The position numbers were made by a program, and so were the translations under genes. DNA of 64,000 bases from Anaerolineae bacterium (GTDB lineage Bacteria; Chloroflexota; Anaerolineae; B4-G1; DUEL01), in assembly GCA_041082215.1 (NCBI GenBank), contig JBDOIF010000058.1, forward strand, positions 1,406 to 65,405, given 5' to 3'. The notes beneath the pieces are model-generated. The model made no database searches. It saw only the letters and a list, made by a program, of their open reading frames with translations, and was not told the DNA's origin. Positions 4,806-45,302 of the stretch are shown here, piece by piece (position 1 is the stretch's first letter; each line of letters starts with the position of its first letter).

Positions 4806-5525
4806 ATGGCTTCGGAAGCCACGAAACCGTGGGGAATGGTGGGGTATGTGTCCCTCGTGGACAGGGGCCGGGGCCGGCTGGGCTACAGGTTCCTCAAGCG
4901 GGCACTTGACGTGGAGGTGGCCTTGTCCTTGCTTTTCCTGCTGGCCCCTCTTATGGCCCTGATCGCGGTCCTCATCCGGCTGGAGTCCCCCGGCCCCGTG
5001 ATCCTGGTGCAGAAGCGAGTGGGGAAGGGGGGACGGGTGTTCGACTTCTATAAGTTCCGTTCGATGCGCCACGAGGGTGACGGGGGAGAACACCGAACCT
5101 ACATAAGAAGATATATCAATGGCCCCCTGGAGGGGGAGGAGCCTGCCTGGATGGAGGGAAGGGTGAGCCGGCCGTTCAAGCCCAGCGCGGCGGGCAAGGT
5201 CACCCGGGTGGGGAGGTTCCTCCGCAAGACCAGCCTGGATGAGCTCCCTCAACTTTTCAATGTGTTGAAGGGGGATATGAGCCTGGTAGGTCCTCGCCCC
5301 CCTATGGCGTATGAAGTGGAGGAATATAAACCCTGGCACTGGCGGCGTTTCGAGGTTCTGCCGGGGATAACGGGATTGGCTCAGATCAACGGGAGGAGTA
5401 AGCTGACCTTTCCTGAGATCATTCGCTGGGACTTTAAATACATCGAGCATTGTTCATTTCTCCTAGATCTGATGATCCTGTTGCGCACAATCCCTATGGT
5501 GCTGACGGGACAGGGGGCGGGCTAG
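4806..5525 (+). CDS. Polyprenyl-phosphate sugar-phosphotransferase (bacterial sugar transferase, WbaP/PglC/WsaP-like small type). This is the enzyme that initiates the glycan on the lipid carrier.
   Basis: N-terminal transmembrane hairpin (VALSLLFLLAPLMALIAVLIRL), PGPVILVQKRVGKGGRVFDFYKFRSM and DELPQLFNVLKGDMSLVGPRP motifs. Confidence 0.85.
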   Translation: MASEATKPWGMVGYVSLVDRGRGRLGYRFLKRALDVEVALSLLFLLAPLMALIAVLIRLESPGPVILVQKRVGKGGRVFDFYKFRSMRHEGDGGEHRTYIRRYINGPLEGEEPAWMEGRVSRPFKPSAAGKVTRVGRFLRKTSLDELPQLFNVLKGDMSLVGPRPPMAYEVEEYKPWHWRRFEVLPGITGLAQINGRSKLTFPEIIRWDFKYIEHCSFLLDLMILLRTIPMVLTGQGAG

Positions 5526-5537
5526 CGGAGGGAGTAC

Positions 5538-6989
5538 GTGAGGGTTTGTCTGGTTGTGCCGCCATGGCGCTACCTGACGACAGAGGCCCCTCCGCTGGGC
5601 GTGGCGTACATCGCAGCCGCGCTCGAACAGGAGGGGCATACTGTACAGGTAGTGGATTGGAGCCAGGAGCCGCTCCCCTCCCTATCGGGAATGCTGGGGG
5701 AGGGGCGGATGACCGCTCTCTCTGCCATACGCCCCGACATGGTGGGCCTGAGCGTGATGAGCGGCAACTGGCTCAGCGGCAGGATGATCCTCCGATGGGT
5801 AAAGGAGAATCTGGGGTGCTGGATTGTAGTCGGTGGCCCGCACGCCACGGCGCTTCCTGAGTCCGTCCTGCAGGCAGGGGCCGACTTCGTGGTCCGGGGG
5901 GAGGGGGAAGAGACCGTCCTCGAGCTGGTCCGGGCTTTGGAGGAGGGAGGGAACGGCCTGGAGCGCATCGCGGGACTCTCCTTCCGGCGGGGGGAGCAGA
6001 TCGTCCATAACCCCCCTCGCCTGCCACAGGCCGATCTGGATAGCCTCCCCCTCCCAGGCTTTCATCTGTGGGACCTGGGACCGTACTCCGAAGGGGGTTC
6101 AGGGTGGGGGGTGATGCTGCCGTTGCTGGTCGGGCGAGGCGGAGAGGGCACATACCGACAGCGAAGCCCGGAGGGTGTGGCAGAGGAGATGGCCCTGCTG
6201 GCCCGGAATCACGGGCGGTATGTGGCGCACCTGATAGGAGATGTGCTGTTTGACGGGGGCCGCTGGCTGGAGGGGCTGGCACACCAGATGGCTGCCCGTT
6301 TGTTGAGGGTGGAATGGCGGTGCCAGGCTCCACTGGAGCACCTCACCCCGCGCCTGCTGGCCCGGATGCGCGAGGCGGGATGTCGGTGGGTGGACTGGCA
6401 TTGGGAGGGTAACGGGGAGGCGCTTTTCGCCAACTGGGAGACGGTGCAGAGAAACGTGCTGTGGATGACCAGTATGGACGTCTTCAGCATCGGCCATTTC
6501 CGGTTGGGCGGGGTGGGGGAACGGCCCGATCATATCCTGCGGATGGTGGAACGGATATCCGAACTGGAGCTGGATGCCGCGGAGTTCTCCTGGTTCATTC
6601 CCCACCCGGCAACTCCCGCATGGGAGCTTGTAAAGGACGGAGGGGGCGGGATGCTCTGGGAGGATTACTACGAAAGTGTCGGGAACCCGCGGGGATGTGC
6701 AACCAGCCTGAACGTCTCCAGGGCCTCTTCAGCAGAGGTGAGGCATCTCCTGCGCCGGGCGCGGTATCTGTTCATCGAGGCCAGGCGCCGGAGAAAGTAC
6801 CAGCTCTACTTCGGTAAGCAGATCGGCGAAGCCCTGTGGTGGGTTTCCAGACAGCCATGGATTCAGAGTCTGGGATGGGAGCTTGCCCACCGACGGATGG
6901 CCCGCGGGAACGGGGGAGGCGAGGAGGCGGAAAGGCCGACAGGCCCTCTCAAAGCGGCGTCGGGGGAAAGCCCCACTGCGGAAGGATAA
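5538..6989 (+). CDS. B12-binding-domain / radical-SAM-like protein that lacks the canonical CxxxCxxC cluster motif; probably a degenerate, non-radical-SAM form.
   Basis: The N-terminus resembles the B12-binding region of B12-radical-SAM enzymes (LVVPPW...[21 protein letters not shown]; [12 protein letters not shown]; [10 protein letters not shown]). Where the Cys triad is expected, the sequence reads [18 protein letters not shown], with no cysteines and a shortened segment. Confidence 0.5.
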
Positions 6990-7003
6990 CAGGAAGGTCG
7001 AAG

Positions 7004-7780
7004 GTGAAGGTCGTCATTCTGGCCGGAGGATATGGGACCCGCCTCAGCGAAGAGACGGGGGTGAAGCCTAAACCGATGGTCGAGATCGGCGAACGGCCCA
7101 TCCTGTGGCATATCATGAAAATCTACTCGACCTATGGCATCAACGACTTCATCATCTGCTGCGGCTACAAGGGGCATGTGATCAAACAGTATTTTGCCTC
7201 CTACTTCCTGTACATGTGCGACGTCACTTTCGACCTGCGGAACAACCGGATGGAGATCCACCAGAACGATGTCGAACCGTGGCGGGTGACGCTGGTGGAT
7301 ACAGGGGAGAAGACGATGACCGGCGGGCGGCTCAAGCGGGTCCGGGAATACGTTGGGGATGAGACCTTCTGCTTCACCTACGGCGACGGGTTAAGCGATG
7401 TGGACATTGCGGACCTCATCGCCTTCCACCGCCAGCAGGGGGTGCTGGCCACGATGACCGCCGTCCAGCCGCCGGGCCGGTTCGGGACCTTCAGGCTGGA
7501 GGAGGGGCAGACGAAGGTCACTCAGTTTCGGGAAAAGCCTCAGGGGGACGGGGCCTGGGTCAACGGCGGCTTCTTCGTCCTGGAACCGGGGGCCATTGAC
7601 TATGTGGACGGGGATGATACCGTCTGGGAGCGGGAGCCGCTCCAGCGGCTGGCCCGGGACGGCCAACTGGCCGCCTACCGGCACTACGGCTTCTGGCATC
7701 CGATGGACACCCTGCGGGATAAGATGGTGCTGGAGGAGCTGTGGACCTCCGCCAACCCGCCCTGGAAGGTCTGGAAATGA
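7004..7780 (+). CDS. rfbF: Glucose-1-phosphate cytidylyltransferase.
   Basis: GTG start after aggaagg. [38 protein letters not shown]; about 258 aa, typical of RfbF/DdhA. Confidence 0.85.
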
Positions 7781-8853
7781 ACCGGGATTTCTGGCGCGGC
7801 AAAAGGGTCCTTGTCACCGGCCACACCGGGTTCAAAGGAAGCTGGCTCTCTTTATGGTTGCAAAGGTTAGGGGCCAGGGTGGTCGGCTACGCCCTCTCCC
7901 CACCCACCCAGCCCAGCCTGTTCGAGATCGCCCACGTCGCCGACGGGATGACCTCCGTTCTGGGCGACATCCGCGACCTGACCTACCTTCGGGCGGTCCT
8001 GGCGGAGCACCGCCCCGAAATCGTGATCCATATGGCAGCCCAGCCGCTGGTTCGCTATTCCTACGAGCACCCGGTCGAGACCTACTCAGTCAACGTGATG
8101 GGGACGGTGAACCTGCTGGAGGCGGTGCGGCAAACGCCGGGGGTCCGGGCAGTGGTCTGCATCACCAGCGACAAGTGCTACGAAAACAGGGAGTGGGTGT
8201 GGGGGTATCGGGAAGAGGACCGGCTGGGCGGGCGGGACCCCTACTCCAGCAGCAAGGGATGCGCGGAGCTGGCCATCTCCGCCTACCGCCGCTCCTACTT
8301 TCCGCCGGAGCGGTACGGGGAGCACGGGGTGGCGCTGGCCAGCACCCGGGCGGGCAACGTGATCGGCGGCGGCGATTGGGCCAGGGACCGTCTGATCCCG
8401 GACATTATGAAAGCGTTGCTGGAAGACCGACCGGTGGTCATCCGCAACCCCCACGCCATCCGGCCCTGGCAGCACGTGCTGGAGCCGCTGAACGGCTACC
8501 TCTGCCTGGCGGAGCGGCTCTACACCGACGGGCCGCCGTTTGCCCAGGCGTGGAACTTCGGGCCGGATAGCGAGAACGCCAGAACGGTGGGCTGGATCGT
8601 CGAGTATCTGACCCGCAGGTGGGGCGAGGGCGCCCGCTGGGAGCTGGACGGGGCCGAGCATCCCCACGAGGACACCTACCTCAAGCTGGATAGCTCCAAG
8701 GCCCGCAGCCTGCTGGGATGGGCGCCCAGACTCCCCCTTGCCACCGCTCTGGAGTGGATTGTGGAATGGTATCAGGGGTATCGGCAGAAGGCGGATATGC
8801 GGGCGCTGACCGAAGCCCAGATCGAGCGGTTTGAGGCGATAGAGGTGGCATGA
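7777..8853 (+). CDS. rfbG: CDP-glucose 4,6-dehydratase.
   Basis: ATGA overlap with rfb[18 protein letters not shown] Rossmann motif and SDKCYEN catalytic YxxxK region; about 358 aa. Confidence 0.85.
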
Positions 8854-9383
8854 TTTTTGAAGAGACCCGGTTAAAGGGAGCTTATATCGTCAGTCTCGAG
8901 CCGATCCAGGACAATCGGGGGTTCTTCGCCCGGGCCTGGTGCCAGAAAGAGTTCGCCGCCCACGGCCTGACCACCACCTTCGTCCAGGCGAACATCACCT
9001 ACAGCCCCAGGCGGGGTACCCTGCGCGGCCTGCACTATCAGATCGCGCCGCACGAGGAGATCAAGCTGGTGCGGTGTGTGCGGGGCGCCATCTTTGACGT
9101 CATCATTGACCTGCGGCCCGACTCGCCTACCTACCTGCAGTGGCTCAGCACCGAGCTGACGGCGGAGAACCGGAAGGCGATCTACATCCCCGGCGGTTTC
9201 GCCCACGGCTATCAGACCCTGGAAGACGACACCGAGGTCTTCTACCAGGTGGGGCAGTTCTACGCCCCTCAGTACGAGCGCGGCATCCGCTGGGACGACC
9301 CGACCTTCGGGATCAAGTGGCCCATCAACCATCCGGTCATCCTCTCGGAAAAAGACCAGCGGTGGCCGGATTTCGAGCCGTAG
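8850..9383 (+). CDS. RmlC-family cupin (dTDP/CDP-4-keto-6-deoxyhexose 3,5-epimerase-like).
   Basis: RGLHYQ, GFAHGYQTLEDDTEVFY motifs; 177 aa; lies directly downstream of the CDP-glucose dehydratase gene. Confidence 0.75.
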   Translation: MIFEETRLKGAYIVSLEPIQDNRGFFARAWCQKEFAAHGLTTTFVQANITYSPRRGTLRGLHYQIAPHEEIKLVRCVRGAIFDVIIDLRPDSPTYLQWLSTELTAENRKAIYIPGGFAHGYQTLEDDTEVFYQVGQFYAPQYERGIRWDDPTFGIKWPINHPVILSEKDQRWPDFEP

Positions 9384-9396
9384 GGCACGTCGAGCG

Positions 9397-10632
9397 ATGG
9401 GAGATGCCGGGCTGGTCGGGCTGCTGGCGGATACATGGTGGTTCGGCCTGACGGACCGTCTGGCAGAGCCGGATTTCAAGGACCTGGCGGCCCGTCGCGC
9501 CAAGCAGGGGTTCTCAGCCATCCAGATGGTCGTCGGCATCCCGCCGGAGGTGGGGCCGGAAAACGAGAACGCCAGAAGCCCGGCCGGGTTCCCGTGGACC
9601 CTGGACGGGCAATTCAATCGGGCGTATCTCCAATTTGCCAGAGGACGTATCGAGTACCTGAACAGCCTGGGGCTGAAAGCTGTCGTCTACGGGGCGTGGG
9701 GGCATCAGATCGAGTGGCTGGGCCGGGAGAGGATGGCCGGGTGGTGGCGGCTGATCGTCGAGACGCTGGACGATCTGGACGTGCTCTACTGCCTCTGCGG
9801 CGAAAGCAGCCTCTGGATCGGCCAGGAGGGGATGCTGCTCCCGGATAAGACAACTGCCGAACTGCTGGCCCGGGTCCGCTTCTCCTGGCTCCCCCCGCGC
9901 CTGAGGGCCTTTCTCGGCGCTGCTGCTCACCGTCTCAAGAAACGGCTGCACCGGCGCCAATGGGAGGCCCGCCGGCAGGCATGGGGATCTGTGCTGGAGG
10001 AGGTAGCCCGGCGCACCGGCCGGCCCATCCTCATCCACCCCACGGCGGACGAGACGGGGTATGAGGCGGTGCCCAACCCCGAGCGGTTGGCGGCCAACAC
10101 CGCCCAAACCGGGCACGACGAGGGGGCCAGGAACCGGCTGTGGCGGCTGCCTCTGGAGCTGGACCGTCGCGGCCTCGCCCCCCGGGGATACATCAACCTG
10201 GAACCCTGGTACGAGGGGATAGGGGATCGGTTCTGGGCCCCGGACCAGCTTTATGCCTACTGGGCCTCGATGCTGGCCGGCGCGCTGGGCCACTGCTACG
10301 GGGCCCACGGCATCTGGAACGTGGGGGACGGAACGTTCCTGGCCCACTGGGGCAGGCAGACCTTTGCCCGGGCGGTGGCGCTGGAGACACCCCGGCTGAT
10401 CGGGCTTTCCCACCGGCTGCTGATGGAGTGCTGGGAGCCTGGGGGGGAGAGCTTTTACCAGACGAGAAGGGGGGAGTTGATCGCCATCGGCAGGCGATGG
10501 GGCGGGAGGGTGGTCCAGTTCTTCCCGGACGTTGCCCGTGTGGATCGGCTGCCGGAGGGGAGGTGCTGGCTTCCGCTGGAAGGGACCTTTGCAGGAACCC
10601 GGCCTTCCAGCGGACCGGCTGTCATTCTGTGA
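9397..10632 (+). CDS. TIM-barrel glycoside-hydrolase-like protein (DUF4038-like); function unknown.
   Basis: 411 aa with no signal peptide. Weak resemblance to DUF4038/GH-like proteins (WWFGLTDRL..., KQGFSAIQMVVGIPPEVGPEN...). Sits inside the sugar-nucleotide operon. Confidence 0.35.
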   Translation: MGDAGLVGLLADTWWFGLTDRLAEPDFKDLAARRAKQGFSAIQMVVGIPPEVGPENENARSPAGFPWTLDGQFNRAYLQFARGRIEYLNSLGLKAVVYGAWGHQIEWLGRERMAGWWRLIVETLDDLDVLYCLCGESSLWIGQEGMLLPDKTTAELLARVRFSWLPPRLRAFLGAAAHRLKKRLHRRQWEARRQAWGSVLEEVARRTGRPILIHPTADETGYEAVPNPERLAANTAQTGHDEGARNRLWRLPLELDRRGLAPRGYINLEPWYEGIGDRFWAPDQLYAYWASMLAGALGHCYGAHGIWNVGDGTFLAHWGRQTFARAVALETPRLIGLSHRLLMECWEPGGESFYQTRRGELIAIGRRWGGRVVQFFPDVARVDRLPEGRCWLPLEGTFAGTRPSSGPAVIL

Positions 10633-10755
10633 GGACGCGAATGACACGAGTGGAGGCGAATTGCACAAATGTGAGCGTCTTTTCCGATTCGTGGGGTTCG
10701 GATCATTCGTGGAATTCGTGATTCGTAATATGCAGGGGGATCGGTTGCCCCAAAA

Positions 10756-12087: not shown

Positions 12088-12112
12088 GTTGGGCGGACGG
12101 GGGGAGGAAGTC

Positions 12113-13000: not shown

Positions 13001-13009
13001 GGAAGCCCG

Positions 13010-14299: not shown

Positions 14300-14348
14300 A
14301 GATAGCCTGAAATAACCAGCGCTTGGGTCTGTACGGAGCTGACGAGTT

Positions 14349-15230: not shown

Positions 15231-15239
15231 GGAGCTTCG

Positions 15240-16022: not shown

Positions 16023-16029
16023 TCGGCCA

Positions 16030-17079: not shown

Positions 17080-17089
17080 GGGTTCTGAT

Positions 17090-23465: not shown

Positions 23466-23466
23466 G

Positions 23467-24567: not shown

Positions 24568-24645
24568 TCCGTCCATTGCGCATGTTGCCTGTGGATTGGA
24601 TGTGTGTCCCCCTGGTCGGTAGGCCGTGGAGGATAAGGGCAGGTA

Positions 24646-31481: not shown

Positions 31482-31487
31482 GAGGCG

Positions 31488-32720: not shown

Positions 32721-32734
32721 GAGGATGGGGTGGA

Positions 32735-36224: not shown

Positions 36225-36225
36225 G

Positions 36226-38233: not shown

Positions 38234-38240
38234 AGGGAAT

Positions 38241-39449: not shown

Positions 39450-39451
39450 GT

Positions 39452-40528: not shown

Positions 40529-41156
40529 GCGGCTGATCGAATTGATCGAGGACTGGAACTATCTGATCGGGCGCGATGGATGGCGGGCAGCGCTGCCGGT
40601 AGTGGGGAGAGAGGTCATAGAATTGCCCTGCCGGTGTAAGAAATTCGCAATTCTGACACGATCCCTCCTGGAGCCTCTGCCCGACCTGGAGCCTCCTCTG
40701 GCCCTTGAGATCCGCGAGTTCAGGCCCGCCGACTTGGAGCTGGTGCGGCCGATCAACCGCCCTTCGGAAATCAGGACCTGCGCGCTGAGATTGGCCCGCG
40801 GTCATCAGGGCCTGCTGGGCCTGTACCAGGGCCGGCCGGTGGGGTATGCCTGGAGTTGTGCAGAGACATCCCTGGAGAGGGTACACCTGAGGCTCGAACC
40901 GGGCGATGCACTCTGCACAGATGCCTATACAGTCCCAGACTTCCGCAGGCGTGGTATACAGACTGCGCTGACAATCGCTCGCTTTCGTCTGCTCCGCGAT
41001 CTGGGTTACCGGAGGGCCGTTGCTTATATCGAACAGAATAACCGCCCATCCCTTGCCGTGTGGCGTCGTGTGGGCGGTCAGGTGGCAGGATATTTCTGCT
41101 TCATTCGGATCGGCCCCTGGCGCTGGGTGCGGTATAGGAAGGGAGTGGGAGAATGA
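40512..41156 (+). CDS. GNAT family N-acetyltransferase.
   Basis: RRRGIQTALTIARFRLLRDLGYRRAVAYIEQNNRPSLAVWRRVG (acetyl-CoA binding motif A region). Confidence 0.7.
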   Translation: MMKWGRRLIELIEDWNYLIGRDGWRAALPVVGREVIELPCRCKKFAILTRSLLEPLPDLEPPLALEIREFRPADLELVRPINRPSEIRTCALRLARGHQGLLGLYQGRPVGYAWSCAETSLERVHLRLEPGDALCTDAYTVPDFRRRGIQTALTIARFRLLRDLGYRRAVAYIEQNNRPSLAVWRRVGGQVAGYFCFIRIGPWRWVRYRKGVGE

Positions 41157-42469
41157 GGATCAGCATCTTCGGTCTGGGATATGTGGGCGCCGTCTCCGCG
41201 GCCTGTCTGGCCCGGGATGGCCACGAGGTGATCGGGGTGGACATCAACCCGATGAAGGTGCAGTTCATCAACGACGGATGCAGCCCCATCAGCGAGGAAT
41301 CGCTTGATACGCTGATCCGGCAGGGGGTGGAGCAGGGCCGCCTGCACGCTACCACCGACTCGCGGGCCGCTGTCCTCAACTCCGAAATCTCCCTCATCTG
41401 CGTCGGCACACCCAGCCACGATAACGGTAGCCTCGACCTCACCGCCGTCCGACGGGTGTGCCGGGAGATCGGCGAGGCGCTGGCCGAAAAACAGGGGGAG
41501 CATATCGTCGTGGTCCGCAGCACCGTCCTCCCTGGCACAACCCACCGGGTGGTCGTTCCGGAGCTGGAGCAGGCCTCCTCCAGACGGGTGGGCGAGGGCC
41601 TGGGGGTCTGCGTCGCTCCGGAGTTCCTCCGCGAGGGAAGCTCGGTGGAGGACTTCTACCATCCCCCCTTTACCCTGATCGGCCAGGAGGAGGCCCGGGT
41701 CGGCGAAAGGGTGGCCCGGCTCTTTGCAGCGGTCGAAGCGCCGGTGATCTATACCTCCATCCCCGTCGCCGAGATGGTCAAGTACGTCTGCAACGCCTAC
41801 CACGCCCTTAAGGTCGCCTTCGCCAACGAGATCGGCGCCATCTGTAAACAGCTCGGGATTGACAGCCACGAGGTGATGGACATCTTCTGCCTGGACCGGA
41901 AACTGAATATCTCCACCGCCTATCTCAGGCCGGGTTTTGCCTTCGGCGGTTCCTGCCTGCCCAAGGACCTGCGCGCTCTCCTCTACGCCGGCCACCATCT
42001 GGACCTCCAGCTCCCGCTCCTGGAGGCCGTCCTCCCCAGTAACGAGCTCCAGATCCGAAGGGCATGGGAGATGATCCAGAGGACAGGTAAAAAGCAGGTG
42101 GGCGTGCTGGGGCTCAGCTTCAAGCCGGGGACCGACGACCTGCGCGAAAGCCCGATGGTCGCGCTGACCGAGCGGCTGATCGGGAAAGGATATACGGTCT
42201 GGCTGTACGACCGCTACGTCTCCTGGGCCAAACTCCACGGGGCGAACAAGGCCTACATCGAGCGCGAAATCCCCCACATCTCCCGCCTCCTCTGCGCTGA
42301 ACTGGAGGAGGTGGTGGAACGGAGCGAGGTGCTTGTGATCGGCCACCGGTTCCCGGAGAGGGACCGGCTGCAGGCGCTCCTGCGGGCGGACCAGGTGGTG
42401 ATCGATCTGGTCCGCCTCAGCCCCGACGGGTGGCACGGCCCCGGGCGGTATGAGGGGATCTGTTGGTGA
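41153..42469 (+). CDS. Nucleotide-sugar 6-dehydrogenase (UDP-GlcNAc / UDP-Glc / GDP-Man 6-dehydrogenase family; WbpA/AlgD-like).
   Basis: MRISIFGLGYVGAVSAACLARDGHEVIGVD and the catalytic Cys region GFAFGGSCLPKD. Confidence 0.85.
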   Translation: MRISIFGLGYVGAVSAACLARDGHEVIGVDINPMKVQFINDGCSPISEESLDTLIRQGVEQGRLHATTDSRAAVLNSEISLICVGTPSHDNGSLDLTAVRRVCREIGEALAEKQGEHIVVVRSTVLPGTTHRVVVPELEQASSRRVGEGLGVCVAPEFLREGSSVEDFYHPPFTLIGQEEARVGERVARLFAAVEAPVIYTSIPVAEMVKYVCNAYHALKVAFANEIGAICKQLGIDSHEVMDIFCLDRKLNISTAYLRPGFAFGGSCLPKDLRALLYAGHHLDLQLPLLEAVLPSNELQIRRAWEMIQRTGKKQVGVLGLSFKPGTDDLRESPMVALTERLIGKGYTVWLYDRYVSWAKLHGANKAYIEREIPHISRLLCAELEEVVERSEVLVIGHRFPERDRLQALLRADQVVIDLVRLSPDGWHGPGRYEGICW

Positions 42470-42493
42470 GAGTGGAGCGGAAAGGAGGGTGAT

Positions 42494-43519
42494 ATGCTCA
42501 GGGCAGCCGTGATCGGCGTGGGCAGTATGGGGGCCAACCACGCCAGGATATACAACGAGCTGGAGGAGGCCGATCTGGTGGCGGTGGCCGACGTTCGGGA
42601 GGAGGTTGCCCGACGGGTCGGCCGCGTCTACAGCGCCCGGCCCTATACCGACTACCGCTGTCTGCTGGAAAAGGAGCGGCCGGACATTGTCTCTGTGGCG
42701 GTGCCGACGAAGGAGCACTTCGCTGTGGCAGTAGACGCGCTCGAGGCAGGCGCCTACGTGCTGGTGGAAAAACCGCTGGCCGCCACCGTGGAGGAGGGAA
42801 AACAGCTTGTCAAACGGGCGCATGCCTTAGGACGGCATCTGATGGTGGGCCACATCGAGCGGTTCAACCCCGCTGTCGCCGAGCTGAAGGCTCGCATTGA
42901 CGCTGGCTGCTGTGGCACTCTCTTGGAAATCCATACCCGCCGCCTCGGTCCCTTCCCATCCCGCATCCGCGATGTCGGGGTCATTGTGGATCTGGCCACT
43001 CACGATCTGGATATCATGCGTTACCTCACCGGCTCCGAAGTCCTCCGCCTCTACGCCGAAACCGGCTCCCATATCCATACCTGCGAGGATGTCCTTTCCG
43101 GCCTGGTCCGTTTTGCCAATGGGGTGCTCGGAGTCCTGGATGTGAGCTGGCTCATCCCCACCAAGATTCGGGAGCTGTACGCCGTGGGGGAGCAGGGGAT
43201 GTTCCGGGTGGACTACGTCACCCAGGACCTCTACTTCTACGAAAACGGCTTTTCTGACAGCCAGTGGGGCTCCCCCGGCACTCTCTGGGGGGTCGCAGAG
43301 GGGCAGATGATCCGCCTCTGCATCCGTAAACAGGAGCCCCTCCGCGTCGAGCTGGCCTCCTTCGTCCAATCTGTGCTGGAGGACCGGCCTCCGCCGGTCC
43401 GCGGGGAGGACGGCCTGGCCGCGCTGGAGCTGGCCCAGCACCTGCGCCTGTCCGGCCAGAGCCAGGAGGTCGTTCGGCTGAAGCGGCTGCAGGAACCAGC
43501 AGGAGTGTATCCGACATAA
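42494..43519 (+). CDS. Gfo/Idh/MocA-family NAD-dependent oxidoreductase (WbpB-like sugar 3-dehydrogenase).
   Basis: AAVIGVGSMGANHARIY...; EKPLAATVEEGKQLV. Confidence 0.8.
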   Translation: MLRAAVIGVGSMGANHARIYNELEEADLVAVADVREEVARRVGRVYSARPYTDYRCLLEKERPDIVSVAVPTKEHFAVAVDALEAGAYVLVEKPLAATVEEGKQLVKRAHALGRHLMVGHIERFNPAVAELKARIDAGCCGTLLEIHTRRLGPFPSRIRDVGVIVDLATHDLDIMRYLTGSEVLRLYAETGSHIHTCEDVLSGLVRFANGVLGVLDVSWLIPTKIRELYAVGEQGMFRVDYVTQDLYFYENGFSDSQWGSPGTLWGVAEGQMIRLCIRKQEPLRVELASFVQSVLEDRPPPVRGEDGLAALELAQHLRLSGQSQEVVRLKRLQEPAGVYPT

Positions 43520-43614
43520 GTACCGGCAAGATACGGATGAACAGCCGGAAGATCAGTGGAGCTCCGCAGAACTCCATATTCTCTGTGCTCCGCGGTGCAA
43601 AGACAGGAGGAGAT

Positions 43615-44226
43615 ATGAGCCCGGAAGCCTTCATCCACCCCACGGCCGAGGTCTCTCCCCAGGCCCGGGTCGGGGCCGGGACCCGCATCTGGCATCAGGC
43701 TCAGGTCCGTGAGGGGGCCTCGCTGGGTAACCACTGTATTGTAGGAAAGGGGGCGTATATTGACAGGGATGTATCCGTCGGCAACAATGTCAAAATTCAA
43801 AACGGCGTCTTCCTCTACCACGGCTCTACCGTCGAGGACGGCGTCTTCCTCGGCCCCGGCGTAGTGCTGACCAATGACAAGTACCCCCGCGCCATTACCC
43901 CTGAAGGGGAGCTGAAGGGGGACGCCGACTGGGAGGTAGGACCGATCCGCGTGAGGGAGGGAGCCTCCCTGGGGGCAGGGGCCATCGTCCTCCCCGGCGT
44001 CACCATTGGCCGCTTCGCGATGGTCGCGGCAGGCGCAGTCGTCGTGCGAGACGTGCCCGACTACGGGCTGGTCGTCGGCGTCCCCGCCCGCCTGCTGGGC
44101 TTCGTCTGTCTCTGCGGCCGTCCCCTGGAGATCGAAGCCCATATGGAAGAGGCCGTGTTGATGCGCTGTCCCGTCTGTCAAAGGTCGGTGGAAATCCCCC
44201 GTACCATCTGGGAGGAAAGCCAATGA
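43615..44226 (+). CDS. Hexapeptide-repeat N-acetyltransferase (WbpD-like).
   Basis: ATG preceded by aggagg. LbH repeats throughout (IHPTAEVSPQARVGAGTRIWHQAQVREGASLG...). Confidence 0.75.
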   Translation: MSPEAFIHPTAEVSPQARVGAGTRIWHQAQVREGASLGNHCIVGKGAYIDRDVSVGNNVKIQNGVFLYHGSTVEDGVFLGPGVVLTNDKYPRAITPEGELKGDADWEVGPIRVREGASLGAGAIVLPGVTIGRFAMVAAGAVVVRDVPDYGLVVGVPARLLGFVCLCGRPLEIEAHMEEAVLMRCPVCQRSVEIPRTIWEESQ

Positions 44227-45302
44227 TCCCTGTCGCCCAACCGCTGATCGGTGAGGAGGAAAAACAGGCTGTACTGGAGGTCCTTTCCTCTGGCCAATTG
44301 GCCCAGGGGCCGAAGGTGGCAGCCTTCGAAGAAGCGTTCGCCGAATATTGTGGGGTGCGGTTTGCCATCGCTACCTCCTCCGGCACGACCGCCCTCCACC
44401 TGGCCCTCCTGGCCCACGGGATCGGCCCGGGAGACGAGGTGATCACCACCTCCTTCTCCTTCATCGCCACCGCCAACGCCGTCCGCTACGCCGGGGCCCG
44501 CCCGGTGTTTGTGGACATCGAACCGCACACCTTCAATCTGAATCCAGCCGGGATCGAAGAGGTCATCACCCCCCGGACCCGCGCCATTATCCCTGTCCAC
44601 CTTTTTGGCCTCCCCTGCGACATGGAGCCGATCTTGGAGATCGCCGACCGGCACGGGCTGGTGGTGATCGAAGATGCCTGCCAGGCCCACGGCGCGGCGG
44701 TCAACGGACGAAGAGTGGGCAGTTTCGGCACAGGCTGCTTTTCCTTTTACCCCACCAAGAATATGACCACCGCCGAGGGGGGAATGGTCACCACTGACGA
44801 CGAAGAGGTGGCCGAACGATTGCGGGTGATCCGCAACCACGGGATGCGGCAACGCTACAAACACGAGATTCTGGGGTATAATTACCGCATGACCGACGTC
44901 CACGCCGCCCTGGGGCTGGGACAACTGGCCCGACTGGAAGCGTTCAACGCACGGCGCAGGGCCAACGCCCGGTACCTCAACCAGCATCTACGGGGGGTTG
45001 TAACTCCCTGGGCGCCGGAGGGGTTTTATCACGTCTTTCACCAGTATACCGTCCGGGTGCCGGACGGGAAGCGGGATTGGCTGGCCGAGCGCCTTCGGGA
45101 GCAGGGGATCGGTACAGCGGTCTATTATCCGATCCCGATCCATCAGCAGCCGACTTTCCGCGGCCTGGAGAACCCGGTCGGGCTGCCGGAGACGGAGCGA
45201 GCCGCCCGGGAGGCGCTCTCCCTGCCCGTCCATCCGGCGCTCGGTGAGGAGGAGCTGCAGAGGATCGTCGAGGCGGTGAACCGCTCGCTGGAAATCATCT
45301 GA
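44223..45302 (+). CDS. DegT/DnrJ/EryC1/StrS-family PLP-dependent sugar aminotransferase (WbpE-like).
   Basis: IPVAQPLIGEEEKQAVLEVLSSGQLAQGPKV...; overlaps the upstream stop. Confidence 0.85.
   Translation: MIPVAQPLIGEEEKQAVLEVLSSGQLAQGPKVAAFEEAFAEYCGVRFAIATSSGTTALHLALLAHGIGPGDEVITTSFSFIATANAVRYAGARPVFVDIEPHTFNLNPAGIEEVITPRTRAIIPVHLFGLPCDMEPILEIADRHGLVVIEDACQAHGAAVNGRRVGSFGTGCFSFYPTKNMTTAEGGMVTTDDEEVAERLRVIRNHGMRQRYKHEILGYNYRMTDVHAALGLGQLARLEAFNARRRANARYLNQHLRGVVTPWAPEGFYHVFHQYTVRVPDGKRDWLAERLREQGIGTAVYYPIPIHQQPTFRGLENPVGLPETERAAREALSLPVHPALGEEELQRIVEAVNRSLEII

What the first reader, a model, noticed from the sequence alone, without database searches (positions are those of the whole stretch)
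4806..45302. A 40-kb locus for an ABC-transporter-dependent, heavily decorated heteroglycan (possible S-layer or cell-wall glycan system)
About 35 same-strand genes begin with a polyprenyl-P sugar-phosphotransferase and include two nucleotide-sugar branches (a CDP-6-deoxyhexose branch and a UDP-diacetamido-uronate branch). There are about ten GT1/GT2 enzymes, and Wzm plus a Wzt with a carbohydrate-binding C-domain. Modifying and processing functions include a kinase, a Wzz-like co-polymerase, a WaaL/WsaB-like O-antigen-ligase-family protein, deacetylases, acetyltransferases and a FemAB-like enzyme. Also present are a Cys-less AsnB homologue, a heparinase II/III-like protein, a BNR lipoprotein and a secreted hydrolase. 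Having a Wzt-type exporter, a Wzy_C ligase and a kinase together in one locus is the architecture of terminator-controlled O-polysaccharide systems and of S-layer protein O-glycosylation (slg) loci in thermophilic monoderms. The accessory enzymes (pseudo-radical-SAM, FemAB-like, heparinase-like, AsnB without Cys) are not part of any described pathway I know.
Basis: partly seen in the sequence, partly recalled or inferred. Interest (0 to 1): 0.75.

Follow-up and report, generated by a model that had tools for sequence, protein, structure and literature searches.

The report
Conserved Anaerolineae surface-glycan gene cluster
This is a real 34-gene cluster for building and exporting a decorated, acidic cell-surface sugar polymer in an uncultured Chloroflexota bacterium, and its core is shared across the class Anaerolineae, so it may make one of the unidentified envelope layers of these bacteria.

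Summary

- **Confirmed unusual details:** the AsnB homologue has no Cys2, the B12-binding protein has lost its radical-SAM motif, and Wzt has a carbohydrate-binding C-domain.
- **Host:** an uncultured Anaerolineae (Chloroflexota) bacterium. The phylum is reported to lack LPS and BAM genes, so an LPS O-antigen is very unlikely.
- **Conserved core:** about 19.9-42.5 kb keeps its gene order in relatives as distant as Caldilineaceae: GT1, GT4, (kinase), Wzz, Wzy_C, GT4, Cys-less AsnB, heparinase-III-like, GT4, unknown secreted protein, BNR lipoprotein, GT4, CE4, GT4, FemAB-like, sugar dehydrogenase.
- **Variable parts:** the initiating transferase, the CDP-6-deoxyhexose branch, Wzm/Wzt and the 2,3-diacetamido branch.
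- **No Wzx flippase** appears in any context examined.
- **Wzy_C role is undecided.** Its conserved pairing with Wzz favours a polymerase/co-polymerase, teichuronic-acid-like reading.
- **Rejected family assignments:** the kinase is not WbdD-like, and the XrtA/PEP-CTERM families are hit only far below cut-off.
- **Side finding:** secreted proteins in and next to the cassette carry a 'YLP-box' motif.

Verdict: a new variant of a known kind, of moderate interest.

The parts
4806..5525 (+). Small polyprenyl-phosphate sugar-1-phosphate transferase that initiates the glycan (one N-terminal TM helix plus the catalytic domain)
   Evidence: Pfam Bac_transf 206.8 bits. TIGR03025 scores 270 bits, below its cut-off because only the C-terminal domain is present. 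TM scan.
5538..6989 (+). B12-binding domain protein that is a decayed radical-SAM enzyme and a relic specific to this genome
   Evidence: Pfam hits B12-binding only. There is no CxxxCxxC motif and only 5 Cys. A 12-residue deletion removes the cluster motif, and the GIESGN motif is degraded, compared with intact homologues of 34-37% identity. Those homologues sit in other contexts.
6836..7780 (+). Glucose-1-phosphate cytidylyltransferase (true start probably near 7001)
   Evidence: TIGR02623 scores 453 bits against cut-off 300, aligned from residue 57.
7741..8853 (+). CDP-glucose 4,6-dehydratase
   Evidence: TIGR02622 scores 512 bits against cut-off 278.
8850..9383 (+). RmlC-type 3,5-epimerase acting on the 4-keto-6-deoxy sugar
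   Evidence: PF00908 scores 233.8 bits. TIGR01221 scores 198 bits against cut-off 156.
9397..10632 (+). Apiosidase-like (GH140-type) TIM-barrel protein with no signal peptide and an unknown role
   Evidence: PF13204 scores 99 bits. No NCBIfam hit.
10756..12087 (+). DRL-type NAD(P) oxidoreductase, a candidate non-canonical reductase for the CDP-sugar branch (inferred)
   Evidence: PF21135 DRL_cat scores 189.5 bits, plus a Rossmann domain.
12065..13000 (+). Wzm, the ABC-2 permease
   Evidence: PF01061 scores 72.5 bits. 5-6 TM helices. Nearest NCBIfam model is the galactan Wzm, below cut-off.
13010..14299 (+). Wzt, the ABC ATPase with a C-terminal carbohydrate-binding domain
   Evidence: ABC_tran plus Wzt_C, 39.9 bits against cut-off 30.4. 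Best PDB match is Aquifex Wzt with its CBD, 8dku/7k2t, E=5e-67, aligned over residues 57-375.
14349..15230 (+). GT2 glycosyltransferase a
   Evidence: PF00535 scores 102 bits.
15240..16022 (+). CE4 (NodB/PgdA-like) deacetylase a, with no signal peptide
   Evidence: PF01522 scores 119.7 bits. NodB and PdaB models are hit below cut-off.
16012..17079 (+). GT2 glycosyltransferase b (its best named relative is TuaG, below cut-off)
   Evidence: PF00535 scores 101 bits. NF047683 scores 76 bits against cut-off 400.
17090..17845 (+). Hexapeptide-repeat O-acetyltransferase (WbbJ/WcaF-like)
   Evidence: Hexapep. PRK09677 scores 83.7 bits, below cut-off.
17838..19877 (+). Secreted S9/alpha-beta hydrolase (GYSMGG nucleophile motif) ending in a YLP-box (…KVCLPLIIRE)
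   Evidence: Peptidase_S9/BD-FAE. N-terminal signal/TM. The C-terminal motif is conserved in all orthologues.
19900..21093 (+). GT-B glycosyltransferase (TuaH-like), the first gene of the conserved cassette
   Evidence: Glyco_trans_1_4. NF047676 TuaH scores 99 bits, below cut-off. Conserved at 42-76% identity in L084-L095.
21100..22341 (+). GT4 glycosyltransferase a (conserved cassette)
   Evidence: PF00534 scores 141 bits. Synteny.
22245..23465 (+). Cytoplasmic APH-fold kinase (probable start 22341), present in many but not all cassettes
   Evidence: PF01636 scores 84 bits. Best PDB matches are homoserine kinase 2ppq and YtaA 2q83, with no WbdD match. Gene call of 374 aa.
23395..24567 (+). 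Wzz-like chain-length (PCP) protein with 2 TM helices and no kinase domain (probable start 23536)
   Evidence: Wzz 25.1 and GNVR 27.2 bits, both just under the Pfam cut-offs. TIGR03007, TIGR01006 and TIGR03017 hit at E about 1e-15. Lies next to Wzy_C in about 15 of 17 contexts.
24646..26121 (+). Wzy_C-family polytopic membrane protein (about 12 TM helices), either a polymerase or a ligase (probable start 24661)
   Evidence: PF04932 scores 59.8 bits. 43 orthologues found. The only PDB relative by sequence and by fold is WaaL 7tpg. AF2 model has pLDDT 82. R279 and R341 are invariant, H377 is not.
26118..27323 (+). GT4 glycosyltransferase b (conserved cassette)
   Evidence: PF00534 scores 144.7 bits. 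Synteny.
27272..29161 (+). AsnB-family adenylating amide synthetase without the glutaminase Cys (starts MAGIFG; SGGLDS PP-loop intact)
   Evidence: Asn_synthase plus GATase_7. Sequence. All orthologues begin MAG or MPG.
29148..31481 (+). Heparinase-III-like protein with no signal peptide, retaining the Asn/Tyr/His aligned to the HepIII catalytic residues
   Evidence: Hepar_II_III_N plus Hepar_II_III_C. PDB 4mmh at E=1e-38 with alignment.
31488..32720 (+). GT4 glycosyltransferase c (WcaL/EpsE-like, conserved cassette)
   Evidence: PF00534 scores 147.7 bits. NF041876 scores 232 bits, below cut-off.
32735..33817 (+). Conserved secreted protein of unknown family with a YLP-box just after the signal/TM segment
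   Evidence: No Pfam, NCBIfam or PDB hit. NF050076 scores 16.6 bits against cut-off 15 when the fragment is searched alone. Orthologues at 50-74% identity.
33804..36224 (+). BNR/Sortilin beta-propeller lipoprotein (a putative extracellular glycan-processing enzyme), with a C-terminal YLP-box in this genome
   Evidence: Sortilin-Vps10/BNR. NF045728 glycosylhydrolase scores 132 bits against cut-off 175. Lipobox in this protein and its orthologues.
36070..37302 (+). GT-B glycosyltransferase d, the most conserved protein of the cassette (probable start 36226)
   Evidence: Only weak Pfam Glyco_trans_4_4. 883 homologues at E<1e-10, many at 70-85% identity.
37256..38233 (+). CE4 deacetylase b (conserved cassette)
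   Evidence: PF01522 scores 58 bits. Synteny.
38241..39449 (+). GT4 glycosyltransferase e (conserved cassette)
   Evidence: PF00534 and Glyco_trans_4_4. Synteny.
39452..40528 (+). FemAB/Acetyltransf_6-type transferase, probably an aminoacyl transfer to a de-N-acetylated sugar (inferred)
   Evidence: PF13480 scores 85.5 bits and PF02388 54.6 bits. TIGR03019 scores 60.7 bits against cut-off 260. Conserved in L116 and L122.
40440..41156 (+). GNAT acetyltransferase
   Evidence: PF00583 scores 29 bits. Orthologue in L116.
41153..42469 (+). NDP-sugar 6-dehydrogenase that forms the uronic acid (conserved cassette)
   Evidence: TIGR03026 scores 405 bits against cut-off 190. Conserved in L091, L116, L117 and L122.
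42494..43519 (+). GFO/IDH/MocA oxidoreductase resembling UDP-GlcNAc 3-dehydrogenase
   Evidence: NF040723 scores 328 bits against cut-off 450. Best PDB match is 7bvj.
43537..44226 (+). WlbB/WbpD-like 3-amino-sugar N-acetyltransferase
   Evidence: Best PDB match is 3mqg, E=4e-40.
44223..45302 (+). DegT-family sugar aminotransferase, the last gene of the locus
   Evidence: PF01041 scores 472 bits. PDB matches include WbpE at 252 bits.

Best explanation
This is a surface-glycan assembly locus of an uncultured Anaerolineae (Chloroflexota) bacterium, a group reported to have no LPS.

**Proposed pathway**
1. A small polyprenyl-phosphate sugar-phosphate transferase starts a lipid-linked glycan.
2. 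Eight cytoplasmic glycosyltransferases extend it, using a hexuronate or 2,3-diacetamido sugar and a CDP-6-deoxyhexose.
3. The glycan is decorated:
   - de-N-acetylation followed by re-acylation (CE4, FemAB-like and GNAT enzymes);
   - O-acetylation;
   - phosphorylation (APH kinase);
   - ATP-dependent amidation of a carboxylate without glutamine (Cys-less AsnB);
   - C5 chemistry on the uronate (heparinase-III-like enzyme).
4. In this genome Wzm/Wzt carries the lipid-linked product across the membrane.
5. Outside the membrane, the always-paired Wzy_C and Wzz proteins most likely join lipid-linked blocks into a polymer of regulated length, as TuaE/TuaF are thought to do for teichuronic acid.
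6. Secreted enzymes (S9 esterase, BNR lipoprotein, the unknown 360-aa protein) trim or place the polymer.
7. The product is an acidic wall-, sheath- or layer-associated polysaccharide.

**What is shown and what is inferred**
- Shown: the gene content, the host lineage, the conservation of the core cassette, and the sequence features listed above.
- Inferred: the sugar identities beyond the first CDP steps, the roles of every decorating enzyme, the polymerase role of Wzy_C, and the final location of the polymer.
For: - **Gene inventory:**
- **Host:** the 80 best rpoB hits are nearly all labelled Chloroflexota/Anaerolineae MAGs, the best at 83% identity. Chloroflexota are reported to lack LPS and BAM genes and to have layers of unknown composition (PMC13319060).
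- **Conserved gene order** from GT1 to the sugar dehydrogenase: L084 (73% Wzy_C identity), L085+L116 (59%), L086 (55%), L091, L093, L095, L122 and Caldilineaceae L117.
- **GT-B 'd':** 883 homologues, many at 70-85% identity.
- **Wzz adjacency:** Wzz lies within two genes of Wzy_C in about 15 of 17 contexts. Wzz-type co-polymerases form complexes with Wzy polymerases (PMC10030265, listed).
- **Link to Wzt:** Wzt with its CBD is contiguous with the cassette in this window and in GCA_040960625.1.
- **Membrane proteins:** Wzm and Wzy_C are the only polytopic membrane proteins in the locus, and the window has no Wzx.
- **Uronate chemistry:** the dehydrogenase is conserved. The heparinase-III homologue keeps the Asn, Tyr and His that align with the HepIII catalytic residues.
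- **AsnB:** orthologues in 8 loci all lack Cys2, while the PP-loop is intact in the window protein.
- **Teichuronic-acid flavour:** the best named relatives of several genes are TuaG, TuaH, TuaC and TuaD.
Against: - No Wzx-type flippase was seen in any of about 8 long contexts, which is unusual for Wzy-dependent polymerisation.
- An ABC-transporter pathway normally exports a finished polymer and needs no polymerase.
- The only solved relative of Wzy_C, by sequence and by fold, is the ligase WaaL. The two Arg equivalent to WaaL R191 and R265 are invariant.
- All Tua-family hits are far below their cut-offs, and neither Wzy_C nor Wzz hit any Tua-named NCBIfam model.
- No LCP wall-attachment enzyme lies in the window.
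- Large YLP-box surface proteins flank the cassette in L086 and L122. This would also fit protein glycosylation.
Confidence: 0.45

Rival explanations
1. The whole glycan is finished in the cytoplasm and capped, for example by phosphorylation. Wzt's binding domain recognises the cap and Wzm/Wzt exports the glycan. Wzy_C then acts as a WaaL/WsaB/PglL-type ligase and transfers the glycan en bloc to an S-layer or other surface protein.
For: - PHPT, Wzm/Wzt and Wzy_C together match the Geobacillus slg cluster, and the Paenibacillus alvei slg cluster even has an asparagine-synthase homologue (PMC2943079).
- Wzt has a CBD.
- WaaL is the only solved relative of Wzy_C, and the WaaL-equivalent Arg residues are invariant.
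- No Wzx is present.
- Wzy_C is a coherent orthologous family at 36-78% identity.
- YLP-box surface proteins flank or sit inside the cassette.
- A lattice-like protein layer is seen on a Caldilineae relative.
Against: - The conserved Wzz partner has no role in known ligase systems.
- The kinase is unrelated to WbdD and has no methyltransferase or coiled-coil part.
- Wzt is not within 10 kb of Wzy_C in L086, L091 or L093.
- The residue aligned near the WaaL catalytic His is His in only 19 of 31 family members.
- Pfam finds no TPR domain or TPR partner.
- There is no S-layer gene in the window.
Confidence: 0.3
2. Two independent pathways merely lie next to each other. The first is an ABC-transporter pathway for a 6-deoxyhexose glycan (about 4.8-19.9 kb). 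The second is a Wzz/Wzy_C pathway for an acidic glycan (about 19.9-45.3 kb) whose flippase and initiating enzyme are encoded elsewhere. Alternatively the two chains are later joined, as in the lactococcal and enterococcal dual-chain wall polysaccharides (known to me from the literature, not tested here).
For: - The right-hand cassette occurs without Wzm/Wzt, without the CDP genes and without an initiating transferase within 10 kb in L086, L091, L093, L117 and L122.
- Accessory modules differ between genomes: C-methyltransferases, a sulfotransferase, an Alg13/14 pair, a CapK-like ligase.
Against: - The window has only one initiating transferase and one exporter.
- All 34 genes are on one strand with gaps of at most about 125 nt.
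- The same fusion, from Wzt through the GNAT gene, is collinear in GCA_040960625.1 at about 60-74% identity.
- HexAT and S9 orthologues sit upstream of the cassette in L095 as well.
Confidence: 0.13
3. It is an ordinary LPS O-antigen locus of a diderm bacterium, with Wzy_C acting as WaaL or as the O-antigen polymerase.
For: The gene families are the same as in O-antigen loci.
Against: - The host is Anaerolineae.
- Chloroflexota are reported to lack LPS biosynthesis and BAM genes (PMC13319060).
- The window has no Lpx, Lpt, Waa or OPX genes.
- No described syntenic O-antigen locus was found.
Confidence: 0.02

Closest known systems
S-layer protein O-glycosylation (slg) clusters of Geobacillus stearothermophilus NRS 2004/3a and Paenibacillus alvei CCM 2051 (PMC2943079)
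   Same: - A monoderm-type host.
- A WbaP-family initiating transferase combined with Wzm/Wzt.
- A Wzy_C-domain membrane protein.
- A nucleotide-sugar branch for a 6-deoxyhexose.
- Tightly packed one-strand organisation.
- The P. alvei cluster also has an asparagine-synthase homologue (WsfA).
   Different: - A conserved Wzz-like partner is present here.
- There is no TPR motif or TPR partner.
- The initiator is the small one-TM type, not the 5-TM WsaP type.
- There are far more transferases and modifying enzymes, plus uronate and diacetamido chemistry.
- No S-layer gene is nearby.
- The glycan acceptor is unknown.
Teichuronic acid (tuaABCDEFGH) operon of Bacillus subtilis (operon composition from my own knowledge)
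   Same: - The family set matches: Bac_transf initiator (TuaA), GT4/GT2/GT1 transferases whose best named NCBIfam relatives are TuaC, TuaG and TuaH, a sugar 6-dehydrogenase (TuaD), a Wzy_C-family membrane protein (TuaE) and a Wzz-like protein (TuaF).
- The product is an acidic uronate polymer of a wall without LPS.
   Different: - There is no TuaB/Wzx flippase. Wzm/Wzt is present instead in this genome.
- All Tua model scores are far below cut-off.
- The locus is four times larger, with amidation, C5 chemistry and secreted processing enzymes.
Terminator-controlled ABC-transporter O-polysaccharide systems (E. coli O9a type; own knowledge)
   Same: Wzm, Wzt with a C-terminal carbohydrate-binding domain, and a kinase in the locus.
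   Different: - The kinase is not WbdD-like and has no methyltransferase or coiled-coil part.
- Initiation is by a PHPT-family enzyme, not WecA.
- Wzz is present.
- The host has no lipid A-core acceptor.
XrtA/PEP-CTERM exopolysaccharide loci (the NCBIfam/TIGRFAM family set TIGR03007, TIGR03097, TIGR03108, TIGR03019, TIGR03006, TIGR03087/88, TIGR04063)
   Same: - The same unusual combination of families: chain-length protein, Wzy_C 'O-glycosylation ligase', AsnB-type amidotransferase, FemAB-like protein, CE4 deacetylase and several GT4s.
- Secreted proteins nearby carry a short terminal sorting-like motif.
   Different: - Every hit is far below the family cut-off (38 against 188, 54 against 279, 181 against 817, 61 against 260, 46 against 276 bits).
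- There is no exosortase gene and no PEP-CTERM tail.
- The AsnB here lacks the catalytic Cys.
- The motif here is a YLP-box.
UDP-2,3-diacetamido-2,3-dideoxy-glucuronate pathways (Pseudomonas/Bordetella WbpABDE/WlbABC, and the methanogen route that starts with UDP-GlcNAc 3-dehydrogenase; own knowledge)
   Same: The four enzyme types are adjacent: a 6-dehydrogenase, a GFO-type 3-dehydrogenase, a DegT aminotransferase and a WlbB-like N-acetyltransferase (3mqg, E=4e-40).
   Different: - The 3-dehydrogenase is closest to the UDP-GlcNAc-specific type (NF040723 at 328 against 450 bits; PDB 7bvj). This implies the order seen in methanogens.
- There is no 2-epimerase.
- Relatives keep the dehydrogenase but lack the other three genes.

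Membership tests
ABC-transporter-dependent glycan export (Wzm/Wzt) | An ABC-2 permease and an ABC ATPase encoded side by side in a glycan locus | tested here: met
   PF01061 scores 72.5 bits and PF00005 83.4 bits. Best PDB matches are O-antigen and teichoic-acid exporters.
ABC-transporter-dependent glycan export (Wzm/Wzt) | A Wzt C-terminal carbohydrate-binding domain | tested here: met
   PF14524 scores 39.9 bits against cut-off 30.4. The alignment to full-length Aquifex Wzt reaches residue 375.
Terminator-controlled O-PS system (E. coli O9a type) | A WbdD-type kinase/methyltransferase chain terminator | tested here: not met
   The APH kinase matches only homoserine kinase 2ppq and YtaA 2q83. 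No WbdD chain appears at E<=1 and there is no methyltransferase domain.
Terminator-controlled O-PS system (E. coli O9a type) | WaaL ligation to lipid A-core in a diderm host | not testable with these tools
   Only the window is available. The host class belongs to a phylum reported to lack LPS genes.
S-layer O-glycosylation (slg) locus | A WbaP-family initiating transferase together with Wzm/Wzt | tested here: met
   The initiator here is the short one-TM form, whereas WsaP has five TM helices.
S-layer O-glycosylation (slg) locus | A Wzy_C-domain oligosaccharyl:protein transferase | tested here: inconclusive
   The Wzy_C domain is present and the fold is nearest to WaaL. Sequence and fold do not separate a ligase from a polymerase. 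The His aligned near the WaaL catalytic His is kept in 19 of 31 members.
S-layer O-glycosylation (slg) locus | A TPR motif in the transferase or in an adjacent partner | tested here: not met
   No TPR family was hit in any of the 34 proteins.
S-layer O-glycosylation (slg) locus | An identified glycoprotein target | not testable with these tools
   There is no S-layer gene in the window. YLP-box surface proteins flank the cassette in L086 and L122, which is only suggestive.
Wzy-dependent pathway | A Wzx (MOP-family) flippase | tested here: not met
   No such family appears in the window. Apart from Wzm in this window, the TM scans of the window locus and of L086, L091, L093 and L095 show no polytopic + strand protein other than Wzy_C. 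No flippase family is listed for the genes called in the other contexts.
Wzy-dependent pathway | A polymerase paired with a Wzz/PCP co-polymerase | tested here: inconclusive
   The Wzz-like protein (2 TM helices, weak Wzz/GNVR, chain-length NCBIfam hits at E about 1e-15) is adjacent to Wzy_C in about 15 of 17 contexts. Polymerase activity itself cannot be tested here.
Teichuronic acid (tua) operon | Equivalog-level matches to the Tua proteins | tested here: not met
   TuaG scores 76 against 400, TuaH 99 against 550, TuaC 86-110 against 550, TuaD 246 against 700. Neither Wzy_C nor Wzz hit any Tua-named model.
XrtA/PEP-CTERM EPS system | An exosortase gene and family scores above cut-off | tested here: not met
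   All scores are far below cut-off. The window has no exosortase-like polytopic protein.
CDP-6-deoxyhexose pathway | Glucose-1-P cytidylyltransferase and CDP-glucose 4,6-dehydratase | tested here: met
   TIGR02623 scores 453 against 300 and TIGR02622 scores 512 against 278.
CDP-6-deoxyhexose pathway | An epimerase and a 4-ketoreductase that fix the final sugar | tested here: inconclusive
   The RmlC-type epimerase is above cut-off. No SDR reductase is present, only a DRL-type oxidoreductase. No RfbH/E1 dehydrase is present, so a 3,6-dideoxy sugar is not indicated.
UDP-2,3-diacetamido-2,3-dideoxyglucuronate pathway | A 3-dehydrogenase, a 3-aminotransferase, a 3-N-acetyltransferase and a 6-dehydrogenase | tested here: inconclusive
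   The N-acetyltransferase is clearly WlbB-like (3mqg, E=4e-40). The dehydrogenase family is met (TIGR03026, 405 against 190). The 3-dehydrogenase is below the equivalog cut-off (328 against 450). The aminotransferase is family-level only.
Glutamine-dependent asparagine synthetase (AsnB) | An N-terminal nucleophile Cys2 in the glutaminase domain | tested here: not met
   The protein begins MAGIFG. TIGR01536 scores 187 against 267. All 8 orthologues begin MAG or MPG.
B12-dependent radical SAM enzymes | A CxxxCxxC [4Fe-4S] motif and a Radical_SAM domain | tested here: not met
   There is no motif and no PF04055 hit. A 12-residue deletion lies exactly where the homologues have CPYNCSYC.
Heparinase III (PL12-type) lyases | The two-domain fold with catalytic Asn/Tyr/His | tested here: met
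   Both Pfam domains are present. 4mmh matches at E=1e-38. N, Y and H align with chain N216, Y270 and H400. Their identity as the catalytic residues N240, Y294 and H424 is from my memory. Secretion is not met, because there is no signal peptide.

The most novel reading that the evidence does not exclude
The conserved cassette could be the biosynthetic machine for one of the chemically undefined envelope layers of filamentous Chloroflexota: the 'inner' or 'outer' layer, or the glycan of the lattice-like protein layer. Under this reading it works as a new hybrid pathway with three features:

- a Wzz/Wzy_C pair operates without any Wzx;
- an ABC transporter feeds it where one is present;
- it is functionally tied to a Chloroflexota-specific 'YLP-box' sorting signal. 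Wzy_C would then couple an acidic, glycosaminoglycan-like glycan (sulfated in Caldilineaceae) to YLP-box surface proteins, or those proteins would dock onto the glycan.
Probability: 0.12. Interest if true: 0.8.

Novelty: new variant of a known kind. Interest (0 to 1): 0.5.

Why it matters
Filamentous Chloroflexota have multilayered envelopes. The composition of their layers is unknown and is only 'suggested to be polysaccharides or proteins' (PMC13319060). They have no LPS and no described wall-polymer genetics.

A collinear 20-kb cassette shared from this genome to Caldilineaceae gives a concrete genetic candidate for one of those layers. Its most conserved transferase is 70-85% identical in many of its closest homologues. 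The cassette can be looked for and disrupted, or its product analysed chemically, in cultured relatives.

It also supplies several clean enzymology questions:
- What does an AsnB enzyme that has lost its glutaminase Cys across the whole lineage amidate?
- What does a cytoplasmic heparinase-III homologue with an intact catalytic set do in biosynthesis (lyase or C5-epimerase)?
- Can a Wzz/Wzy_C pair work downstream of an ABC exporter with no Wzx?

If it turns out to be an ordinary wall polysaccharide, the value is mainly descriptive.

Tried and rejected
1. **Synteny around rpoB.** None of 80 Anaerolineae rpoB neighbourhoods carries any gene of the locus. The position next to rpoB is private to this genome.
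2. **Naming the source genome.** Exact look-ups returned only Logan SRA assemblies (SRR27730040/43, SRR28530377/80/81). The 76.9-kb NCBI contig was not shown.
3. **XrtA/PEP-CTERM membership.** Rejected, because all scores are far below cut-off and there is no exosortase.
4. **WbdD-like terminator.** Rejected.
5. **Ligase versus polymerase by structure.** The AF2 model is good (pLDDT 82). Foldseek against the PDB returns only WaaL and then FtsW, and no Wzy-type structure matched, so the question stays open.
6. **The B12 'pseudo-radical-SAM' as a pathway component.** Rejected. It has no close relatives apart from identical copies. Its intact homologues (34-37% identity) sit with a SPASM radical-SAM enzyme and PMT_2 glycosyltransferases, not in this cassette.
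7. **The unknown 360-aa protein.** There is no Pfam, NCBIfam or PDB sequence hit. The single-sequence AF2 model is unusable (pLDDT 43), so no fold search was run.
8. **RNA and signal scans.** Rfam found nothing, the tRNA scan found nothing, and the promoter/terminator scans at both borders gave nothing above shuffled expectation that helps define transcription units.
9. **Literature.** No paper was found describing this cassette in Anaerolineae or describing the YLP-box.

Full report
**1. What is in the sequence**

The + strand between 4806 and 45302 is one unbroken chain of 34 ORFs. After start sites are corrected from alignments and from gene calls on identical contigs, neighbouring genes overlap or are separated by at most about 125 nt.

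Left of the locus lie a DHDPS-Fae fusion, an ECF sigma factor with its anti-sigma factor on the other strand, and TatC. A 473-nt gap follows. Right of the locus lie a DUF4062 protein, a DUF362/ferredoxin protein, an unassigned 337-aa ORF, and then rpoB-rpsL-rpsG-fusA-tuf. G+C drops from 64-67% in the flanks to 55-60% in the middle of the locus.

Pfam and NCBIfam scans give the following gene order:

- a small Bac_transf initiating transferase;
- a B12-binding protein;
- glucose-1-P cytidylyltransferase, CDP-glucose 4,6-dehydratase and an RmlC-type epimerase, all three above NCBIfam cut-offs;
- an apiosidase-like TIM-barrel protein;
- a DRL-type oxidoreductase;
- Wzm, then Wzt with Wzt_C;
- GT2, CE4, GT2, a hexapeptide O-acetyltransferase, and a secreted S9/alpha-beta hydrolase;
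- a TuaH-like GT-B and a GT4;
- an APH kinase, a Wzz/GNVR protein and Wzy_C;
- GT4, an AsnB homologue, a heparinase II/III protein and GT4;
- a 360-aa protein with no family;
- a BNR/Sortilin lipoprotein;
- a weakly recognisable GT-B, CE4, GT4, a FemAB/Acetyltransf_6 protein and a GNAT;
- an NDP-sugar dehydrogenase, a GFO oxidoreductase, a hexapeptide N-acetyltransferase and a DegT aminotransferase.

- **AsnB homologue.** It starts MAGIFG, so the glutaminase nucleophile Cys2 is missing. The SGGLDS pyrophosphatase loop is intact.
- **B12-binding protein.** It has no CxxxCxxC motif. Compared with intact homologues, a 12-residue deletion removes exactly the CPYNCSYC segment.
- **Wzt.** It aligns with full-length Aquifex Wzt into the binding domain.
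- **Hydrolase and BNR protein.** They have a signal sequence and a lipobox respectively.

**2. Who carries it**

rpoB finds its 80 best relatives almost exclusively in MAGs labelled Chloroflexota, Anaerolineae or their orders. The best match is 83% identical, and Thermoflexales are at about 72%. The host is therefore an uncultured Anaerolineae species with no species-level representative in that collection.

Identical proteins occur in several SRA assemblies and on a 76.9-kb NCBI contig.

According to a 2026 study of a Caldilineae relative:

- Chloroflexota are regarded as monoderm and lack BAM and LPS-biosynthesis genes.
- They have a multilayered envelope made of cytoplasmic membrane, peptidoglycan, an 'inner layer', a shared 'outer layer' and a lattice-like protein layer.

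**3. The locus is a conserved cassette plus variable modules**

The Wzy_C protein has a coherent orthologue family: 43 hits at 36-100% identity, and 189 clusters at E<=1e-30 in the 50%-identity library. Gene neighbourhoods of these orthologues and of the GT-B 'd' orthologues show the same gene order.

- **L084 (73% Wzy_C identity)** runs from CE4a to the heparinase-like gene.
- **L085 and L116** are one contig of GCA_040960625.1 (59% identity). It is collinear from Wzt(+Wzt_C) through CE4, GT2, GT2, the acetyltransferase, S9 hydrolase, GT1, GT4, Wzz, Wzy_C, GT4, AsnB, heparinase-like, GT4, the unknown protein, BNR, GT-B 'd', CE4, GT4, FemAB-like, dehydrogenase and GNAT. Protein identities are 50-74%.
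- **More distant loci** (L086/L090, L091, L093, L095, L122 and the Caldilineaceae contig L117) keep the core: GT1, GT4a, Wzz, (APH), Wzy_C, GT4b, (AsnB), heparinase-like, GT4c, (unknown protein), BNR, GT-B 'd', (CE4), GT4e, (FemAB-like), dehydrogenase.
- **The surroundings vary.** Different genomes add two C-methyltransferase-like genes, an Alg14/Alg13-like pair, a sulfotransferase or a CapK-like ligase.
- **GT-B 'd' is the best conserved member,** with 883 homologues at E<1e-10 and many at 70-85% identity.

By contrast, some parts were not found next to the more distant cassettes. These are the initiating transferase, the B12 relic, the CDP-sugar genes and the last three genes of the diacetamido branch. 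Wzm/Wzt was seen next to the cassette only in this window and in GCA_040960625.1. None of 80 rpoB neighbourhoods contains any gene of the locus.

So roughly 19.9-42.5 kb is an ancestral, lineage-wide cassette. The left 15 kb and the right 3 kb are accessory.

**4. Reading the chemistry (inference from family knowledge)**

- **CDP branch.** It has the first two committed enzymes and an epimerase, but no E1/E3 3-deoxygenation enzymes and no SDR 4-reductase. A CDP-6-deoxyhexose is indicated, with the DRL-type oxidoreductase as a possible unconventional reductase.
- **Diacetamido branch.** The N-acetyltransferase is closest to WlbB (3mqg, E=4e-40). The GFO enzyme is closest to UDP-GlcNAc 3-dehydrogenases (NF040723 at 328 against 450 bits; PDB 7bvj, which I recall as GnnA). 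The DegT enzyme is generic. This fits UDP-GlcNAc going to the 3-keto, then 3-amino, then 3-acetamido sugar. Oxidation by the conserved dehydrogenase is a plausible last step.
- **A hexuronate is probably a core constituent.** Relatives keep the dehydrogenase without the other three genes.
- **Heparinase-like protein.** It is clearly homologous to heparinase III (E=1e-38). It keeps Asn, Tyr and His at the positions aligned with chain N216, Y270 and H400 of 4mmh. To my recollection these are the catalytic N240, Y294 and H424. It has no signal peptide. A cytoplasmic enzyme able to abstract the C5 proton of a uronate would act as a trimming lyase or as a C5-epimerase.
- **AsnB homologue.** It lacks Cys2 in all eight orthologues examined (MAG or MPG starts). 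The loss is therefore ancient and selected. The likely activity is ATP-dependent amide formation on a carboxylate with ammonia or an amine, not with glutamine.
- **CE4, FemAB-like and GNAT genes.** Their conserved grouping suggests de-N-acetylation followed by aminoacyl transfer and acetylation.

None of these roles is shown.

**5. How the polymer is assembled and exported**

Wzm and Wzy_C are the only polytopic membrane proteins in the locus. The window contains no Wzx/MOP flippase, no LCP ligase and no BY-kinase. No other polytopic protein, and no flippase family, appears within 10 kb of Wzy_C or GT-B 'd' in the relatives.

Two readings compete for Wzy_C.

*For a polymerase:*
- A Wzz-like two-TM protein lies within two genes of Wzy_C in about 15 of 17 contexts. 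Wzz proteins are known partners of Wzy polymerases (PMC10030265).
- The family content mirrors the teichuronic-acid operon. The best named relatives are TuaG, TuaH, TuaC and TuaD, although all are far below cut-off.
- The residue aligned near the catalytic His of WaaL is His in only 19 of 31 family members.

*For a ligase:*
- The exporter is an ABC transporter with a glycan-binding domain, which normally handles finished chains.
- No Wzx is present.
- The only solved relative of Wzy_C, by sequence (7tpg, E=2.6e-8) and by fold (TM 0.50/0.59), is WaaL. The Arg residues matching WaaL R191 and R265 are invariant.
- The described S-layer glycosylation clusters share the PHPT, Wzm/Wzt and Wzy_C combination, and one has an asparagine-synthase homologue (PMC2943079).

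The kinase does not help the terminator idea. It is unrelated to WbdD. It also accompanies Wzz/Wzy_C in loci with no Wzt nearby.

I rank the polymerase, teichuronic-acid-like reading first (0.45). The S-layer or protein-ligase reading is second (0.30). Two independent or dual-chain pathways come third (0.13), and LPS is last (0.02).

**6. The accessory oddities**

The 'pseudo-radical-SAM' protein has only identical copies and then homologues at 37% identity or less. Those homologues are intact B12/radical-SAM enzymes sitting beside a SPASM radical-SAM protein and PMT_2 glycosyltransferases. It is best seen as a decaying relic, not as part of the conserved system.

The AsnB-like, FemAB-like, CE4, Wzy_C and chain-length combination is not unprecedented. 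It is the family set that NCBIfam associates with XrtA/PEP-CTERM EPS loci. Membership in that system is rejected here because the scores are far below cut-off and there is no exosortase.

**7. A side observation worth recording: the YLP-box**

- The unknown secreted protein carries DYRMFLPLVMRS right after its signal segment. This reaches the NCBIfam 'YLP-box putative sorting motif' cut-off when the fragment is scanned alone (16.6 against 15 bits).
- The S9 hydrolase ends in …KVCLPLIIRE and the BNR protein in …YRQYLPAILVPGR.
- All S9 orthologues end in the same kind of motif.
- So do the large surface proteins flanking the cassette in L086 and L122.
- C-terminal occurrences number 7 of 620 six-frame ORFs in cassette loci, against 3 clear cases of 2099 (4 by the raw pattern) in the rpoB neighbourhoods (Fisher p=0.002 on 7 against 3).

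This is a crude comparison, but the motif is clearly real and is associated with the cassette. I found no paper on it.

**8. Verdict**

- This is a new variant of a known kind of system, a polyprenol-linked surface-glycan pathway.
- It is notable for its lineage-wide conserved core and for its hybrid Wzz/Wzy_C-plus-ABC make-up without Wzx.
- It is also notable for its conserved Cys-less AsnB and its cytoplasmic heparinase-III homologue.
- It has possible relevance to the undefined envelope layers of filamentous Chloroflexota.
- Interest: 0.5.

Noticed in passing
window 17838-19877 (C-terminus), 32735-33817 (residues 66-75), 33804-36224 (C-terminus); L084, L085, L086, L095, L116, L122: A short 'YLP-box' motif ([YFC]LP[LAV][IVL]..R) marks several secreted proteins. 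It sits at the extreme C-terminus of the S9 hydrolase and all its orthologues, of the BNR lipoprotein in this genome, and of the large surface proteins flanking the cassette in L086 and L122. In the unknown 360-aa family it lies just after the signal peptide. It matches NCBIfam NF050076 (16.6 against 15 bits on the fragment) and is enriched near the cassette (7 of 620 ORFs against 3 of 2099, p=0.002). No paper was found.
   Followed up: partly
window 48528-57061; L002-L081: rpoB is followed directly by rpsL, rpsG, fusA and tuf, with no rpoC in between. The same order holds in most of the 80 Anaerolineae loci fetched wherever the downstream flank was long enough to show it, so the separation of rpoB from rpoC looks like a trait of the class.
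   Followed up: partly
window 5538-6989; L113 929-3516; L114 3334-5795: Intact homologues of the decayed B12/radical-SAM gene sit next to a SPASM radical-SAM gene and arrays of PMT_2 (GT-C) glycosyltransferases, with DegT, GNAT and YfhO genes nearby in L113. This looks like a different, uncharacterised envelope-glycan system in Anaerolineae.
   Followed up: partly
L117 4160-5098 (GCA_020846635.1, Caldilineaceae); L117 11189-12159; L122 11757-12679: In the Caldilineaceae version of the cassette a sulfotransferase sits between the sugar dehydrogenase and a GT4, next to the heparinase-III homologue. This hints at a sulfated, glycosaminoglycan-like polymer. L117 and L122 also carry an Alg14/Alg13-like split glycosyltransferase pair.
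   Followed up: no
window 3-1430: One ORF fuses a dihydrodipicolinate-synthase-family domain (residues 1-262) to a formaldehyde-activating-enzyme (Fae) domain (residues 319-471). The ORF runs off the left end of the window.
   Followed up: no
window 1478-2717 (- strand) and 3608-4333: An ECF sigma factor with an adjacent DUF4367 anti-sigma-like protein, and a TatC gene, lie immediately upstream of the glycan locus. A regulatory link was not examined.
   Followed up: no
window 45405-48158: Three genes lie between the locus and rpoB: a DUF4062 protein, a DUF362 protein with two 4Fe-4S ferredoxin motifs, and a 337-aa ORF with no Pfam or NCBIfam hit. None of them is found upstream of rpoB in the relatives.
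   Followed up: no
window 22001-40000: G+C falls to 55-60% in the centre of the locus, against 64-67% in the flanks. This is so even though the central genes are the lineage-conserved ones, so low G+C here does not by itself indicate recent transfer.
   Followed up: no
L115 (CP070818.1, 4.87-Mb Anaerolineae MAG) 700-12000: This genome shows a reduced version of the cassette (GT4b-AsnB-heparinase-like-GT4c-GT-B 'd'-GT4e). It has fragmentary gene calls, including a 112-aa ABC2_membrane piece upstream, and no Wzy_C within 10 kb. Either assembly frameshifts or real decay could explain this.
   Followed up: no
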